Source: Octopus vulgaris (lineage: Eukaryota). From it: a stretch of DNA of 64,000 nt. The position numbers were made by a program. Below are positions 15,001 through 36,000 of this stretch, one piece after another; the first letter of the stretch is position 1, and every line of letters begins with the position of its first letter. The stretch lies in the NCBI GenBank assembly GCA_951406725.2, contig OX597817.1, positions 106,516,001 to 106,580,000 on the forward strand. Reading direction: 5' to 3'.

Positions 15001-18000
15001 ATTCTCAAATGTAATTCGTTTTTAATAAGTTTAAAAGATGACTAAAATTTTTATGACAATATTTTCTAATCTTCATTGAGTACTTAAAAATATTTTCTGC
15101 GATTTCATGATGCATCTTATTTCTGACGGATTGGCTACATAACTTCATTTTAGCTATAAATACATTTATACATACACATATTTTATATATATATATGTAT
15201 AATCTATGTGTATATATGTGTGTGTATGTCTGTATGTGTATATATATGTGTTTTTATTTTCATTTTTTATTTATTATTTTTTTAGAATAGTGCATGTAAT
15301 AGGATTGTTTAAAACAATTTTGTTACTTTTTAATTCTTTGGTTGAGTGGTGACAAGATTTTATTTTACCTATTCTATTTATTTATTAGATGTTGATTTTG
15401 TTCCTTTTTTTTAGAAATTAAGACATTTAAGATTCAGTGCCATGCACCTGCTTTAATTTTTTAACAATTCAAAATTAGCTTTAAGAAAGCTGGCTGATCT
15501 GTAACTGTTAGCACTAATTTTGAGTTGTAGCTTTTAGTTCAGGAACCTTCAATATTTGCACCAACATTTTCTTTCAGTTTGTTGATGTAATGGTTCTCCC
15601 ATAAACCAAAAGCTAAATGCTTTCATTATTCAGTCAGTGGATTGACTTCAACAAACAAAATGCTTTGCTATATTTAGTTATCTCTTTTACATTTCTGAAT
15701 CTTTAATCCCACCTGAGCCAATGAAATAGAGAACCAGTCAACCACTAGTGTGTGACTGCCACTCCATTGATTATGATGACGAGAGCTACAGTTGATCTGA
15801 TCAATAGAACAGCCTGCTTGTGAAATTACATGCCACAAAGTATCACAAGGCTGGCCCTTTGAAATATAGGTACTACTCATTTTTGCCAGCTGAATGGACT
15901 GGAGCAATGTGAAATAAAATGTCTTGCTCAAAGACACAATGTGCCACCAGGAATTGCCCTCACAACATTGCAATTGTGAGCCAAATAACTGGGGTATAGG
16001 TGATTGACTATGCCCTTTTTTAAAGTTATCTGTTGTGTAGTTTATTGCATTAACCTTGTCGTGAGTTAATATTCTCTGCAGGTGTTATTCTGTGCCTCTT
16101 AAGATATCATTTTTACCAGCTGCATGTCGCCTGATATCAAACACTGAACACTTGGCCACACTATCTGCAATATAGTGAATAACATTGAATAAAGGAAGAA
16201 ATTCATGTCTTTGTTTAACTACTACTTGATTTAGAGTTAAGCACTGAACTTACCACTTCCTGTAACTTGTAGACATAAGTTCTGGATAATTTTTTATTAT
16301 ATAGATTCTTAAAATTTTTGTTTTGTTTACCAAGCAAGAATTTTTTGTCTTATTTCTTTTATTATTATTTTAATTTATTTATTTTAGTTTAGTTTTTGCA
16401 TGTATAATTTTAGTTTTGTTGCATCAATAGTAATCATGAACAGAGAGGTTTTGTATGCCTACTCATTTTTCCAAAGTTTTGATATACGTTGAACTTTTAT
16501 TGGAACATAAACCAGTCATTTGTAACAACTTTCAAATATTTAAATTTCTTAGCTTTTAACAATTATTTTCAAACTTAAACTTTAGATTTCATGTATCATA
16601 CTTTCTTTAAGAAAAAATATAAACTTATCTCCATCCAGATGTTGATAAGCATCTATAGTTAGACATATTTGCATGTGTAGAAGTAGTTGCTTGATAAATG
16701 CAAAATGATGGCTATTATTTTATTAATGAGATAGGTATAAAATTCTCTATATACGTATGTGTGTTCATATTGCTTGGTTGATTAATAATAAAATACTAAG
16801 TTGAGTAATTGACGGAATCATTCAGTCTCATGATTTTTGTAGATATGTTGTCCTAATGTCAGACTCAAAAACATTTTATTGATAGCAGAGAGTTTAAGAA
16901 AGTTGGATGTTACTTATTAGGATGTCAGTGTACAAGTCTCATGAACTGGTAGATTTGTATGCACTTTGCAGAAGTGAGTCTGAATACCAGGAAAATCTCA
17001 TATTTTTATATTTAAAATGCATGCACATACGTTCAGTTGTGTGTGTGTGTAAATTCATTTAGTTTATAATTACAATTGTTTGAGAAGTTCAGCGTTGCAA
17101 TTTGCCACTTTCCTGACATTGTTCCATAGATCCAGTATGATTAGATTATTTAGATTAACCTATGCAGTGGATGAAAAATCAAACATCATAATGGAGTGCT
17201 ATTGCAGTGTGGATGTATGTTGGCAATCTCTAGATCTAGTTAATTGTGATATTTAGCATGGAACAAAATTCAAGAATGCAATTGTGCCAGTGTACTCCTT
17301 GTTTTGTATGTTTGGCATTCTTTATTGAACATGACCTGGTCTGGTGGTGAATAATCTGTTTATTAGTACTTGAGATTAGTAACCTTGAATGAAAAGGAGT
17401 AGCATTTTCAACATGAAACTATACACTTGTACTTTTGGTTAAGTTATCTTTAGAAATTTTGTAGTTAGATTAACAACTAAAATATTGCCAGCGGTTTATT
17501 TTCAAATGACCAACATAAGAATTTTTTCTTGCCATGAGAATGCTTTTTTGCATGCATGCAACACAATGCTGAAAGCTTATATTGCAATATGTATCTGGAT
17601 AATTTTAATATCAATGTTTCTGAAATCTTTTTATTTCAAGAAACATTTTCCAAAGATTGAACCTTATACACAAATGTTGCAATTTTTATATAATAACTTG
17701 GAGAAAGTATGTTACATAAAAGTATAATTGTTTTGTCACCACTAAACTGATAAAGGATTTTGATAACATTATTATCCATCATTATATTTTTAACATTTAC
17801 ACTACTGGCATAGTTTTAAAAAGCAACAACTAATTATTACTGTGTTCACTTAATATTATTCTAAGTCTTGTGCATGTGATTGTATGTTCTGCTTTTGCTG
17901 TGGTGGTGACTAGAGCTGTCCAAGTGTTGAGAAATCGCAGCTCCATGGACGATGACCGCATTTGTGATTTGGAGCAGAAATGCAAAGATGCAGAGCTGTT

Positions 18001-33000: not shown

Positions 33001-36000
33001 GCCACGATTTCAGTGACACAGTGAATAAGAAAGATTGTTACTAACTTTGTTTAAAACAGTCCAGTATTGTGTATACAACAAGCATTTCAAGGTCATTTTT
33101 CTCTGTTGAAGCAGAAGTTAACCTTACAGGATCCACAACAGTCTTCTCCATGCTCTACCCTTTCTGCTAATCTACTGCTTCTCTACCTTGATTTCATTTT
33201 CTCTTCCATCACTCTTCAAATCTAGTCACTTTTATACTTTCAGCTCATGACCCAGCCATTACTTTCCAGTCTTCTCTGCTTGTCCATGTTAATTGCCTAC
33301 ATCTCACTTCTATATATCAGCACCTCTCACATGTGCAACATAATACCTTTCAATTTCTGTGACACTTCCTTCATCAGTACATCACTCCTTCCATGCTCAC
33401 CTCTCTTCAGCCACAGTTGCCAAGTCTGATTCACTTTCTCTATTTCAACATCTATGTAATGAAATGTTTTTCACACCTTTTGTCTTTATGCCATTTGCAA
33501 GAGTCGACTCAGTTTCCCTTCCCTCTATAGCTCCTTCTTAAATGTACACATCCAAGACACCTACTGACAATCAGAAACCAAATTTATTGAAACATTGTGG
33601 TGATGTAAATATTAATGATATTTTATCTCAAAAGTTGAGCTAAGCCATCTGAAAAATTATAATTGTAAACTTTGTTTTTGTTAACTTTTTAATATCAGTG
33701 TAAAATATATGAGAAATATTTTTCTTTTTACTTTCTTTGTCTTTAAGAATTCATTGCAGATTGTTAAGGATCACTAATTAGAATTTTAATGAATTTTCAA
33801 TGAGTGTGAGTAAAATGAAAATATTATTGGACAGAGACATGCTACATTTTGTAAAATGACCTATTTATATTTCATGTTCTCTATAAATTTCTATATTAGA
33901 ACTGATTTAATTCACTACTTGCTTAATGCTTTCAGATGAACTGCTTGCTGAAAAGGAAAGATACAAAGCCATCAGTGATGAGTTGGACCAGACATTTGCA
34001 GAATTGGCTGGGTATTAAGTTCACTATTATGACTATGACAGATCAGCTGCTCTTGCGTCAGACTATTTAGATAGGTCTTTCTGCAGTCATGTGATGATCA
34101 AAAAAAAAAAGAAATTATAATAATAATGAACAGCTGTAACATTTCTGAGCTGCACTTGATGAATAAATACCTTCTTGTCCAGAGTGGAACAGACTATCAA
34201 AAATTTACTCTTGCAGACAAATAAATAAAAAAAATATCATAAAAAATTTAACCTACCAAAAACCTGTATCCAAAGTAAAAAGAGAAAATAACAACACTCC
34301 CAGATCATATTTTCTTCTTTCATCTTCCTCTATACCTAGACCAAAACTTTGTGTGGTTACTTGTTGACACCTTTGTCGATTCATTTTTCGAATCACTATG
34401 GGGCAAGCAGAACCAAGTTTTAGATAATTGACTGCAAGGAAGAAGTATTTAAGGTTGGCTGGATGCATTTATTTCATTCTCATTAGCTTTTGAAATTCAA
34501 AGGATTATGGTTCATTTGTCCAAATGCCTGTCAAACTTTATAGCTCAAAATTATCTCTTTTTCTATTTGATGAGTTTCCAGCCATCAACACATAGCCAGC
34601 AAATAGCATGTAAACTTTTTGGAAGGTTCTAAGCATCTTTAAAATTTTATTCTTAAACTTTGCTACTTCTTTGCTGTTCTCTTGAGTGTTTCTAGCAGAA
34701 ATACCATCTTAATGTAGCACTTTTTACTGAGGCCTTTCTTTGATTCTAGGGGGATAATGTAATGACATTATTATGACTATGGTTATTCACTCTTTCTTAG
34801 CTAATCTTCTCAACTATGTCTGACTTCTTTTTGCTGGATCTAGTTGTGTAATGGATCTTGTAATTCTCTAGGCTAAAACCTTAGCCTAGCTTTGCTGCCA
34901 CATCCCCCAGAATATATCGCCAGTTTGTTCTAATACTAATAAAATCCATATGCTCTCCAATTTGTGTTGTTTTCACAAATAAACACATATTTCAATAGTG
35001 TCTTTTTTTTTTCTCTCTCTCACACACACACACACTCTCTCTCACTTTCTACTTGTTTTGCTTTTGCTTCATTTTAAAGCTTATATTAAATGGAATATTG
35101 AGTTTTCTCTGAAAATATTTTCTTCTTCCACTATTTGTAAACTGCAGTCACATCAATAACTTCTGTTTCAAGGAGATTACTATTATCTTTTAATTGCAAT
35201 TGATATTCCATTTATTTCTATTGAATAATTAAAAAAACAGAAAACTAAAGGTACAGTTAGCCCTTAGCAAAGTTTTGTTTTCTAAAAAGCAGATTTATTG
35301 CAAACACTGCTTTTTAATTTCTGCCAATCAAGGGATTAATATTTTCCCCGTTCTTATTTAAAAATACTGCTCATTCATCAAGTATGTTTTAAGCAAATTT
35401 TTTTCATTTCGTGTAACTGAAAAAATAGCTTGGTTTTAAGTAGGACAGAAGGATTAAAAAGAATAGGTATTTTTAATAAACATATTCTCATCTTAAAACC
35501 AATCGTGCCTTGCTAAAATAAATTAATTTCAATATACTGAAAACTATTTTAGATGTATTGATAAATAATTAATATCTCATAATGAGCTGTATAATCTTGT
35601 CATGTAATTTCAACCTTTTGGAACAAAAATGTAAATTTTAAACTTAACACTACACTTAATAAAATTAGTCAACTTTCTAGAATTCTGATTTTCTTTCTTT
35701 TTTTTTTTTTTTTCTTTTTTTCTGTAATGAAATCCCTAATAAATATTATCAATATCATAAGTGATCCCCTTTATCATTTTAAATTTTGTTCATGCTTATT
35801 GTCTACTTTTTATTTATTTTCCTCCTTGACCTATCTATTTGAATTGTCCTTCAATATATAGTTTCTTTTTGTATTCACTTATGCCTTCTCTTTGTGGCCG
35901 TCAGTGTTGAGTTTTTTTTGTTTTTTGTTTTTTTTGTTTATTTTAGAACTTAGTCTTACTGGGTTGTTTTAGCTTCTCATTTTCTGCAGCCTTTTGAGAG

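What the first reader, a model, noticed from the sequence alone, without database searches (positions are those of the whole stretch)
17914..34018. Combinatorial tropomyosin: five arrays of duplicated, apparently mutually exclusive exons (4x2x3x2x2 = 96 isoforms per promoter)
Seen: exon 4 x4 (all 118 nt), exon 5 x2 (71 nt), exon 6 x3 (76 nt), exon 8 x2 (70 nt) and exon 9 x2. Every copy is stop-free, has intact AG/GT sites, and shares length and phase with its siblings (internal exons), while nucleotide sequences are highly diverged. This points to old duplications kept by selection. No internal exon length is a multiple of 3, so including two copies or none shifts the frame. Established: vertebrate TPM genes alternate exons 1, 2, 6 and 9, and fly Tm1 and nematode lev-11 have their own alternative exons. 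Inference: here most of the C-terminal half of the coiled coil is swappable, a small Dscam-like system in a cytoskeletal gene that is also the major cephalopod allergen. I do not know of a description of this in cephalopods but cannot verify novelty.
Basis: partly seen in the sequence, partly recalled or inferred. Interest (0 to 1): 0.88.

Follow-up and report, generated by a model that had tools for sequence, protein, structure and literature searches.

The report
Octopus tropomyosin gene, alternative exon arrays
This is the octopus tropomyosin gene, whose duplicated, one-at-a-time exons are real but ordinary: the same design is known from worm, fly and vertebrate tropomyosin genes, and public octopus gene models already use all copies but one.

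Summary
On the + strand lie exon 4 x4 (118 nt), exon 5 x2 (71), exon 6 x3 (76), exon 8 x2 (70) and two alternative C-terminal exons 9. All are open, AG/GT-bounded and in the same phase as their siblings. Each ranks top among all same-length candidates in the window. Each keeps the coiled-coil heptad in the expected register.

The window matches Octopus vulgaris tropomyosin models at 100%. In 33 public octopus models (17 O. vulgaris, 16 O. bimaculoides), all 32 full-length ones carry exactly one copy per array. Every copy is used except 4c.

Novelty is low:
- The O. vulgaris isoforms were annotated from Iso-Seq and RNA-seq (PMC10700109).
- The O. bimaculoides models already ran to X34 under their earlier names.
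- Recurrent tandem exon duplication with mutually exclusive splicing is documented for tropomyosin, including C. elegans lev-11 with three 118-nt copies (PMC3342872, PMC4165533).

The "96 isoforms per promoter" figure is arithmetic, not shown.

Small new points: exon 4c is intact but unannotated; two sibling introns are 61 nt; TGCATG elements cluster near the alternative exons. I found no paper describing this in cephalopods.

The parts
7002..7124 (+). Alternative first coding exon ('1b-like', 41 codons from ATG; GT donor at 7125)
   Evidence: Read. Identical to residues 1-41 of the O. vulgaris 245/247-aa models. Used by 11 of 33 models. No Pfam hit alone.
13560..13693 (+). Exon 3, single copy, 134 nt
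   Evidence: Pfam Tropomyosin 44.3 bits at profile positions 40-82. Present in 33 of 33 models. No second copy in the window.
17914..18031 (+). Exon 4a, 118 nt
   Evidence: Pfam 25.8 bits at profile 86-122. Used in 13 of 33 models. An open 4a-like exon (32/39 identical) lies in an unnamed relative, P0147.
18032..18092 (+). 61-nt intron between 4a and 4b; holds a TGCATG at 18056 and a branch-point-like heptamer with its A at intron position 40
   Evidence: About 67 nt in the relative P0147.
18093..18210 (+). Exon 4b, 118 nt
   Evidence: Pfam 21.4 bits at profile 85-122. Used in 18 of 33 models. It is the only exon whose O. bimaculoides peptide differs from the window (92%).
18539..18656 (+). 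Exon 4c, 118 nt: intact, but in no public octopus model seen
   Evidence: Pfam 41.3 bits. 64% amino-acid identity to 4d, pN 0.22 with pS saturated, heptad kept. Used in 0 of 33 models. The search gave 4 hits, none from octopus.
18855..18972 (+). Exon 4d, 118 nt, the most canonical copy
   Evidence: Pfam 44.1 bits. Used in 2 of 33 models, both O. bimaculoides long-N-terminus forms.
20533..20603 (+). Exon 5a, 71 nt (canonical)
   Evidence: Pfam 16.0 bits at profile 124-145. Used in 20 of 33 models.
20703..20773 (+). Exon 5b, 71 nt, the most diverged copy
   Evidence: No Pfam hit alone. 6/23 identical to 5a, with 30/5000 shuffles reaching its score. Best non-self of 91 candidates. Used in 13 of 33 models.
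23494..23569 (+). Exon 6a, 76 nt
   Evidence: No Pfam hit alone. Used in 13 of 33 models.
24015..24090 (+). Exon 6b, 76 nt (two core-position cysteines)
   Evidence: No Pfam hit alone. Used in 8 of 33 models.
24091..24151 (+). 61-nt intron between 6b and 6c
24152..24227 (+). Exon 6c, 76 nt (canonical); TGCATG 14 and 53 nt downstream
   Evidence: Pfam 29.2 bits at profile 147-171. Used in 11 of 33 models. TGCATG positions.
28467..28529 (+). Exon 7, single copy, 63 nt
   Evidence: Pfam 19.5 bits at profile 172-192. Present in 32 of 33 models.
30315..30384 (+). Exon 8a, 70 nt (canonical)
   Evidence: Pfam 20.4 bits at profile 193-215. Used in 19 of 33 models.
30609..30678 (+). Exon 8b, 70 nt
   Evidence: No Pfam hit alone. 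11/23 identical to 8a. Used in 13 of 33 models.
32444..32532 (+). Exon 9a coding part with stop (alternative C-terminus, two residues longer than 9b)
   Evidence: No Pfam hit alone. Used in 24 of 33 models. No AATAAA/ATTAAA before 9b and no strong donor after the stop.
33936..34018 (+). Exon 9b coding part with stop (canonical C-terminus); AATAAA at 34162, 34220 and 34224
   Evidence: Pfam 16.6 bits at profile 218-241. Used in 8 of 33 models. Poly(A) signals.

Best explanation
The window holds the 3' two-thirds (at least 27 kb, 7002-34018, + strand) of the Octopus vulgaris tropomyosin gene.

Five positions of the coiled coil are encoded by tandemly duplicated exons: exons 4, 5, 6, 8 and the C-terminal exon 9. 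The spliceosome puts one copy per array into each mRNA. The resulting isoforms differ in residues about 125-213 and 235-284, and in three alternative N-termini, of which only the 1b-like one lies in the window.

Shown here:
- the exon anatomy;
- homology and constraint of the copies;
- one copy per array in public gene models;
- that only one-copy mRNAs keep the reading frame.

Inferred:
- frame-shifted products are removed by nonsense-mediated decay;
- the two 61-nt sibling introns (4a-4b, 6b-6c) are too short to be spliced out, a steric block of double inclusion;
- the choice among copies is set by tissue-specific factors, possibly an Rbfox-type protein acting on the UGCAUG elements clustered at the alternative exons;
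- copies are partly tied to particular promoters, with a muscle set and non-muscle sets, rather than chosen freely.
For: Anatomy and chance controls.

Family: 10 of 16 exon peptides hit Pfam Tropomyosin alone, each at the profile positions expected from exon order. All four exon-4 copies land at 85/86-122.

Constraint:
- The expected heptad register ranks first of 7 for 15 of 15 exon peptides (9a tied).
- Third codon positions are near random while second positions are conserved.
- O. bimaculoides peptides are 100% identical to the window for every exon except 4b, at 92%.
- An open 4a orthologue exists in an unnamed relative.

One copy per array:
- 32 of 32 full-length models, of 33 examined, with 30 distinct combinations.
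- O. vulgaris alternative forms were annotated by PASA from Iso-Seq plus RNA-seq. The genome-wide mean is 1.36 transcripts per gene (PMC10700109, passages), whereas this gene's protein accessions seen run from CAI9721600 to CAI9721633.

Frame: read alone in the shifted phase, every second copy has a stop: exon 4 copies at codons 6-14, 5b at 12, 6b at 4, 6c at 23, 8b at 1. Skipping does the same for exons 4, 5 and 6.

Short introns: 61 nt twice. The 4a-4b intron is about 67 nt in the relative.

TGCATG: 26 sense against 13 antisense copies in the gene. 7 of the 26 lie within 100 nt of alternative exons, against 2.16 expected; 94 of 20000 random placements reach 7. None lies in the 400 nt flanking exons 3 and 7. 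It ranks first of 180 same-composition hexamers.

Kind already known: passages of PMC3342872, PMC9741552 and PMC4165533.
Against: - No read-level data were available. Gene models can chain compatible partial alignments, so full-length combinations and the independence of the arrays are not shown.
- Models with two copies or none would be dropped as non-coding, so 'one per array' in protein models is partly built in.
- Exon 4c has no model support (0 of 33).
- 6 of 16 exon peptides (1b, 5b, 6a, 6b, 8b, 9a) have no Pfam hit alone. 5b is only weakly similar to 5a (30/5000 shuffles).
- Skipping exon 8 into 9b meets no stop within the exon.
- The steric argument needs the minimum spliceable intron of octopus, which I do not know. 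Introns of about 40 nt are spliced in C. elegans (PMC4165533 passage).
- The TGCATG test was made after I noticed the motif, and the role of Rbfox is recalled, not tested.
- Outside Octopus and one unnamed relative I found no 4a/4b-type exon, so the age of the divergent copies is unknown.
Confidence: 0.9

Rival explanations
1. One reading: all five arrays are chosen freely and independently, so each promoter yields 96 isoforms. The gene would be a Dscam-like diversity generator.
For: - 30 distinct combinations occur among 33 public models.
- All four 8/9 pairings and all four 4a/4b x 5a/5b pairings occur.
Against: - 4c is never used, and 4d appears in only 2 of 33 models and never with the 1b start.
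- Models assembled partly from short reads do not prove long-range combinations (annotation method in PMC10700109).
- The published account of tropomyosin exon duplicates is that each copy becomes 'assigned' to one of two functionally different isoforms driven by alternative promoters (PMC3342872 passage).
- There are only 2-4 variants per array, and no docking/selector signal.
Confidence: 0.1
2. Some copies are unused relics (pseudo-exons) that merely remain open, above all 4c and perhaps 5b. The true repertoire would then be smaller than the exon count suggests.
For: - 4c is in 0 of 33 models, and no octopus protein is among the 4 hits of a direct search.
- 5b is the least similar copy, with no Pfam hit.
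Against: - 4c has intact AG/GT borders, 15/20 pyrimidines before the acceptor, and no stop in 39 codons.
- 4c has the second-best Pfam score of the four copies, 41.3 bits. Its heptad is kept. pN is 0.22 against 4d with synonymous sites saturated.
- 5b is used in 13 of 33 models and is 100% conserved in O. bimaculoides.
Confidence: 0.12
3. The divergent exons belong to a separate nested gene, or are chance open frames.
For: None found.
Against: - Public models join the divergent exons to the shared exons 3 and 7.
- The copies rank top among all same-length, same-phase candidates and lie next to their siblings.
- Their register and phase fit the host gene.
Confidence: 0.01

Closest known systems
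Caenorhabditis elegans lev-11 (tropomyosin)
   Same: One gene with tissue-specific promoters and several clusters of homologous, equal-length mutually exclusive exons. One is a trio of exactly 118 nt (3n+1), the same size as octopus exon 4. Its 139-nt pair equals octopus exons 6 plus 7 in length. It also has stop-carrying alternative 3' exons (PMC4165533, Table 1 and text passages). PMC9741552 counts six further duplication events in lev-11 (passage).
   Different: - Octopus has four copies of the 118-nt exon, separate arrays for exons 5, 6 and 8, and 61-nt sibling introns. The lev-11 sibling introns listed are 123-422 nt.
- Published work holds that such events arose independently in different lineages. 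I did not test orthology between worm and octopus copies.
Vertebrate TPM1-4
   Same: - Alternative promoters (1a/2 versus 1b).
- Mutually exclusive exons 2a/2b and 6a/6b, and alternative exons 9 (recalled).
- Five duplication-derived substitution events with peptide support in TPM1 (PMC9741552 passage).
- The exon lengths 134/118/71/76/63/70 are the same as I recall for vertebrate TPM genes.
   Different: - Vertebrates do not alternate exons 4, 5 or 8 (recalled).
- They spread isoform diversity over four genes.
Drosophila Tm1/Tm2
   Same: Tandem-duplicated alternative exons (7 events in 2 genes: PMC9741552 passage). Tm1 also has atypical isoforms with long low-complexity extensions (recalled).
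   Different: Different exons are duplicated. I did not examine orthology.
Drosophila Dscam1
   Same: Several arrays of mutually exclusive exons in one gene, so that diversity multiplies.
   Different: - Dscam1 has dozens of variants per array, docking/selector RNA pairing, and stochastic choice for self-recognition (recalled; Dscam is mentioned in the PMC3342872 passage).
- Here there are 2-4 variants, no docking/selector signal above control, and a structural cytoskeletal protein.

Membership tests
Tropomyosin (Pfam PF00261) | Sequence match to the family profile, collinear with exon order | tested here: met
   10 of 16 exon peptides hit PF00261 alone, at successive profile positions 40-82, 85-122, 124-145, 147-171, 172-192, 193-215 and 218-241. 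Only exon 3, 4c and 4d exceed the whole-protein cut-off of 38.6 bits on their own, since the others are short fragments. Public full-length models containing these exons carry PF00261.
Tropomyosin (Pfam PF00261) | Unbroken heptad repeat (a/d core) in one register along the molecule | tested here: met
   With a = 1+7n and d = 4+7n (register recalled from alpha-tropomyosin), the expected register ranks first of 7 in 15 of 15 exon peptides (9a tied). 57-100% of the core positions are hydrophobic.
Tropomyosin (Pfam PF00261) | Canonical 284-residue muscle isoform (the allergen form) made from this locus | not tested
   Exons 1a/2 are not in the window. No 284-residue octopus model appeared among the 120 listed hits. 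Names such as 'Tod p 1.0102' are given by similarity.
Clusters of tandem-duplicated, mutually exclusive exons | Adjacent homologous exons of equal length and phase with their own splice sites | tested here: met
Clusters of tandem-duplicated, mutually exclusive exons | One and only one copy in mature mRNA | tested here: inconclusive
   32 of 32 full-length public protein models have one copy per array, and the O. vulgaris models are transcript-derived. No reads could be examined, and frame-shifted forms would not appear as protein models. For exon 9 the mode (alternative terminal exon or stop-carrying cassette) is open.
Clusters of tandem-duplicated, mutually exclusive exons | A mechanism that forbids double inclusion or skipping (frame shift with decay, steric block, or competing RNA pairing) | tested here: inconclusive
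   - Frame shift: met for arrays 4, 5, 6 and 8.
- Steric block: two 61-nt introns, one conserved at about 67 nt in a relative, but the minimum intron size of octopus is unknown.
- RNA pairing: no signal above the reversed control.
Dscam-type hypervariable genes | Large arrays (tens of variants) with docking-site/selector pairing | tested here: not met
   There are 2-4 variants per array. The best shared helix scores of 16-21 equal or barely exceed the reversed-sequence control of 16-21.

The most novel reading that the evidence does not exclude
The octopus gene could be the most modular tropomyosin gene yet seen. On this reading:
- Three N-termini and five arrays are chosen largely independently.
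- A fourth exon-4 variant (4c), missing from current annotation, is used in a tissue or stage not yet sampled.
- Double inclusion is blocked by conserved 61-67-nt introns.
- Choice is steered by UGCAUG elements beside the alternative exons.
- Variant exons place cysteines in the coiled-coil core (4a, 6b, 8b), which could allow redox-sensitive cross-links.
Probability: 0.12. Interest if true: 0.45.

Novelty: already known. Interest (0 to 1): 0.2.

Why it matters
The value is modest.
- It gives a clean, exon-level map of a very isoform-rich invertebrate cytoskeletal gene, with one intact exon (4c) that current octopus annotation appears to miss.
- It offers a natural comparison with worm lev-11 for the repeated, independent duplication of the same 118-nt tropomyosin exon.
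- For allergy work, it warns that 'octopus tropomyosin' is a family of isoforms differing over about half the molecule, so epitope maps depend on the isoform.
- The short sibling introns and the UGCAUG clustering give simple, testable ideas for how the choice is made.

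Tried and rejected
I redid the work from coordinates.
2. Pfam on single short exons gave nothing for 1b, 5b, 6a, 6b, 8b and 9a. I relied on sibling comparison and public models instead.
3. Docking/selector RNA pairing:
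   - Inverted repeats found were only A/T runs and the (TA)n array.
   - A full duplex-energy script timed out.
   - A fast ungapped-helix scan showed nothing above the reversed control. It used one species and no bulges, so this is weak negative evidence.
4. Age of the copies:
   - The limpet isoform's exon 4 is equally close to 4c (77%) and 4d (74%). Its exon 8/9 regions are not clearly orthologous to 8b/9a.
   - An exhaustive HMMER search with 4a found one close relative only.
   - So the age remains unresolved.
5. Irimia et al. 2010 (PMC2912468), the key paper on tropomyosin exon duplications, is not held. I know it only through passages in papers that cite it. Whether it treats a mollusc I could not see.
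6. Searches for a printed description in cephalopods or molluscs found none. Supplements were closed and subscription journals are not covered.
7. I looked for a poly(A) signal or strong donor after the 9a stop and found none.
All searches were exon by exon, and full-length comparisons used public protein models only.
No cephalopod genomic DNA other than the window could be compared.

Full report
**What is there**

The window has no N. Between 17.9 and 34.0 kb the + strand carries short open frames whose translations look like consecutive pieces of tropomyosin.

I enumerated AG-[fixed length]-GT pairs inside those frames. This gave:
- four exon-4 copies of 118 nt (17914-18031, 18093-18210, 18539-18656, 18855-18972);
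- two exon-5 copies of 71 nt (20533-20603, 20703-20773);
- three exon-6 copies of 76 nt (23494-23569, 24015-24090, 24152-24227);
- a single exon 7 of 63 nt (28467-28529);
- two exon-8 copies of 70 nt (30315-30384, 30609-30678).

The two C-terminal exons start at 32444 and 33936 and end in stops at 32530-32532 and 34016-34018.

Upstream lie a single exon 3 of 134 nt (13560-13693) and a first coding exon with an ATG at 7002 and a GT donor at 7125.

Canonical exons 1a and 2 are not in the window, so the gene starts upstream of it.

**Is it more than chance?**

Sibling copies are 39-68% identical in nucleotides and 16-64% in amino acids. Their ungapped BLOSUM scores exceed all 5000 shuffles in 9 of 12 pairs. 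The other three pairs were 8a-8b and 9a-9b at 1/5000 each, and 5a-5b at 30/5000.

A control for search space listed every AG-open-GT candidate of the right length and phase on both strands of the whole window: 31 to 102 per exon. The claimed copies always rank directly below the reference copy and far above the next candidate. No extra copy of exon 3 or 7 exists. A sensitive tblastn of five public tropomyosin models found no other tropomyosin-like segment in the window.

**What it is**

Searched exon by exon, 10 of 16 exon peptides hit Pfam Tropomyosin on their own, at successive profile positions. All four exon-4 copies land at the same positions, 85/86-122. The six without a hit are 1b, 5b, 6a, 6b, 8b and 9a.

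The exon-3 peptide, searched against longer proteins, found Octopus vulgaris models of 245/247 residues and O. bimaculoides 'tropomyosin Tod p 1.0102' isoforms of 394/396 residues, all 100% identical over exon 3. The O. vulgaris models match every exon of the window at 100%, including the first exon at 7002. The window is therefore O. vulgaris or something indistinguishable from it.

Cluster listings show O. bimaculoides models numbered up to X34 under their earlier 'tropomyosin-2-like' names. One is now labelled LOC106871823. The O. vulgaris accessions seen lie between CAI9721600 and CAI9721633.

**Exon use in public models**

I examined 33 octopus models: 17 O. vulgaris and 16 O. bimaculoides. 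These were all members of five clusters plus six singleton clusters. Each was matched to the window's exon peptides at 85% identity or more.

- All 32 full-length models carry exactly one copy from each array. The 33rd, P0138 (298 residues), stops matching after 5a.
- Usage counts:

| Exon | 4a | 4b | 4c | 4d | 5a | 5b | 6a | 6b | 6c | 8a | 8b | 9a | 9b |
|---|---|---|---|---|---|---|---|---|---|---|---|---|---|
| Models of 33 | 13 | 18 | 0 | 2 | 20 | 13 | 13 | 8 | 11 | 19 | 13 | 24 | 8 |

- There are 30 distinct combinations.
- Eleven models, all O. vulgaris, start with the 1b-like exon. The other 22 start with a 189-residue lysine/serine-rich extension that is not in the window.

The O. vulgaris genome paper states that alternative forms were added by PASA from Iso-Seq and RNA-seq, with 1.36 transcripts per gene genome-wide (PMC10700109, passages only). 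The alternative exons therefore have transcript-derived support, and this gene is an outlier in isoform number.

Two caveats apply. Such pipelines can chain partial alignments. Frame-shifted forms never become protein models.

**Exon 4c**

A direct search with 4c gave 4 hits, none from octopus. Three were ORFs called on unspliced genomic DNA of unnamed organisms. The fourth was Patella vulgata tropomyosin-1 X7, at 78%.

Yet 4c looks intact:
- good splice sites;
- Pfam score of 41.3 bits, second only to 4d;
- heptad kept;
- pN 0.22 against 4d, with synonymous sites saturated.

I read it as a functional exon missing from current models. I give this about four chances in five.

**Constraint and age**

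- Third codon positions of siblings are 0.26-0.48 identical (random expectation 0.28), while second positions reach 0.80.
- The expected heptad register ranks first of seven in all 15 exon peptides, with 9a tied.
- O. bimaculoides peptides equal the window's in every exon but 4b, which is 92%.
- An alignment of 4a and 4b searched against longer proteins found only the octopus models plus one unnamed 81-residue ORF, P0147.
- An exhaustive HMMER search with 4a gave 15 hits at E <= 0.001. Only P0147 is closer to 4a than to 4c/4d. P0152 is marginally closest to 4b, at 22/39.
- P0147 reads through intron on both sides, so it comes from genomic DNA of a relative. Its 4a is 32/39 identical, the 45 nt before the acceptor translate identically, and the 4a-4b intron is 6 nt longer.

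How far back the divergent copies go is not settled. The limpet's exon 4 is equally near 4c and 4d. These libraries hold few isoforms, so absence is weak evidence.

**How it most likely works**

*Shown.* The duplicated exons are 3n+1, 3n+2, 3n+1 and 3n+1 nt long. Read alone in the phase that a preceding sibling would impose, each second copy meets a stop: exon 4 copies at codons 6-14, 5b at 12, 6b at 4, 6c at 23, 8b at 1. Skipping arrays 4, 5 or 6 does the same in the next exon. Skipping exon 8 gives a stop in 9a but none within 9b.

*Inferred.* Such mRNAs are lost by nonsense-mediated decay, as shown for many worm clusters (PMC4165533 passage).

*Inferred, steric block.* Two sibling introns, 4a-4b and 6b-6c, are 61 nt each. 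Branch-point-like motifs lie about 38-40 nt from the donor. This may block joint use sterically, as recalled for vertebrate alpha-tropomyosin exons 2/3. Smith and Nadal-Ginard 1989 was seen only in a reference list.

*Not supported.* Docking/selector pairing of the Dscam type has no support.

*A lead.* TGCATG occurs 90 times in the window against 48 +/- 7 in shuffles. In the gene it is twice as frequent on the sense strand, 26 against 13. Seven of the 26 sense copies lie within 100 nt of alternative exons: before 4a, inside the 4a-4b intron, after 4c, twice after 6c, before 8b and before 9a. Random placement gives 2.16 on average, and 94 of 20000 placements reach 7. None lies in the flanks of exons 3 and 7. 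It ranks first of 180 same-composition hexamers. I tested this after noticing the motif. The reading as Rbfox-type sites is from memory.

*Published view.* Duplicated tropomyosin exons become assigned to one of two promoter-driven isoforms with different cellular functions (PMC3342872 passage). That fits the rarity of canonical 4d with the two N-termini seen here, 2 of 33 models. I could not test it.

**Exon 9**

9a and 9b give different C-termini. No AATAAA or ATTAAA lies on the + strand in the 1403 nt between the 9a stop and the 9b acceptor. No strong donor follows the stop. AATAAA follows 9b at 34162, 34220 and 34224. Whether 9a is a terminal exon or is spliced on to 9b stays open.

**Comparison with what is known**

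- Independent duplication of many tropomyosin exons 'in most bilaterian lineages' is stated in PMC3342872 (passages).
- PMC9741552 counts 13 events in four human genes, 7 in two fly genes, and six further events in lev-11 (passages).
- PMC4165533 lists lev-11 clusters 4a/4b, 5a/5b/5c (118 nt each), 7a/7b (139 nt) and stop-carrying 9a/9b (Table 1 and text passages).
- The octopus gene is the same kind of thing. It differs in which exons are duplicated and how often.
- I found no paper describing it in cephalopods. Irimia et al. 2010 is not held, and supplements were closed.

**Verdict**

The feature is real but ordinary. It is already contained in public gene models of two Octopus species and belongs to a well-described class.

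Residual new points:
- the unannotated exon 4c;
- the conserved very short sibling introns;
- the TGCATG clustering;
- core cysteines in 4a, 6b and 8b.

Interest 0.2.

Noticed in passing
window 25596-26751 (wider TA-rich repeats about 25.3-26.8 kb): A 1.16-kb (TA)n microsatellite of 583 copies, 85% matches, sits in the intron between exon 6c and exon 7. It also produces the long spurious open frames and palindromic repeats seen there.
   Followed up: partly
window 62638-63999 (+), open at the window end: A 454-codon open frame runs off the window. It has no Pfam hit at E <= 0.01. A language-model look-alike search points to DUF229 (PF02995) proteins at score 0.96. It is probably the first large exon of a neighbouring gene. 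This is a lead only.
   Followed up: partly
outside the window (upstream); proteins P0009 and P0146: The 394/396-residue octopus isoforms carry a 189-residue lysine/serine-rich N-terminal extension that is not encoded in the window. The extension is conserved block by block in Patella vulgata tropomyosin-1 X7, at 57% identity over the whole proteins. This third N-terminus therefore predates the gastropod-cephalopod split.
   Followed up: partly
window 13560-13693 and upstream: No 284-residue octopus tropomyosin appeared among the 120 listed hits of the exon-3 search, although such a protein should share exon 3. Either the muscle form uses another exon 3 or another locus, or it is hidden by clustering. 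This is unexplained.
   Followed up: no
exons 3, 4a, 6b, 8b (13560; 17914-18031; 24015-24090; 30609-30678): Cysteines fall on coiled-coil core (a/d) positions in exon 3 and in alternative exons 4a, 6b (two) and 8b. The canonical copies 4d, 6c and 8a have none. In a parallel dimer these could form interchain disulfides.
   Followed up: no
window 42000-57000: This block is richer in G+C (0.35-0.42, against about 0.30 in the gene) and holds several 130-182-codon open frames on both strands. None of the five I sent to Pfam had a credible hit. TGCATG-containing short repeats lie around 52487-52600. These may be repeat or transposon relics.
   Followed up: partly
window 19150-19205 and 19958-20013: A long A-rich run and a T-rich run 750-800 nt apart lie in the intron between 4d and 5a and could pair (56 nt, 75% complementary). 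I judged this to be low-complexity sequence.
   Followed up: no
protein P0152 (unnamed source): This 208-residue protein has an exon-4-like segment marginally closer to 4b (22/39) than to 4d (20/39). It may be a distant 4b-type exon.
   Followed up: no
whole window: No Rfam family reached its gathering score, and no tRNA gene was found on either strand.
   Followed up: yes
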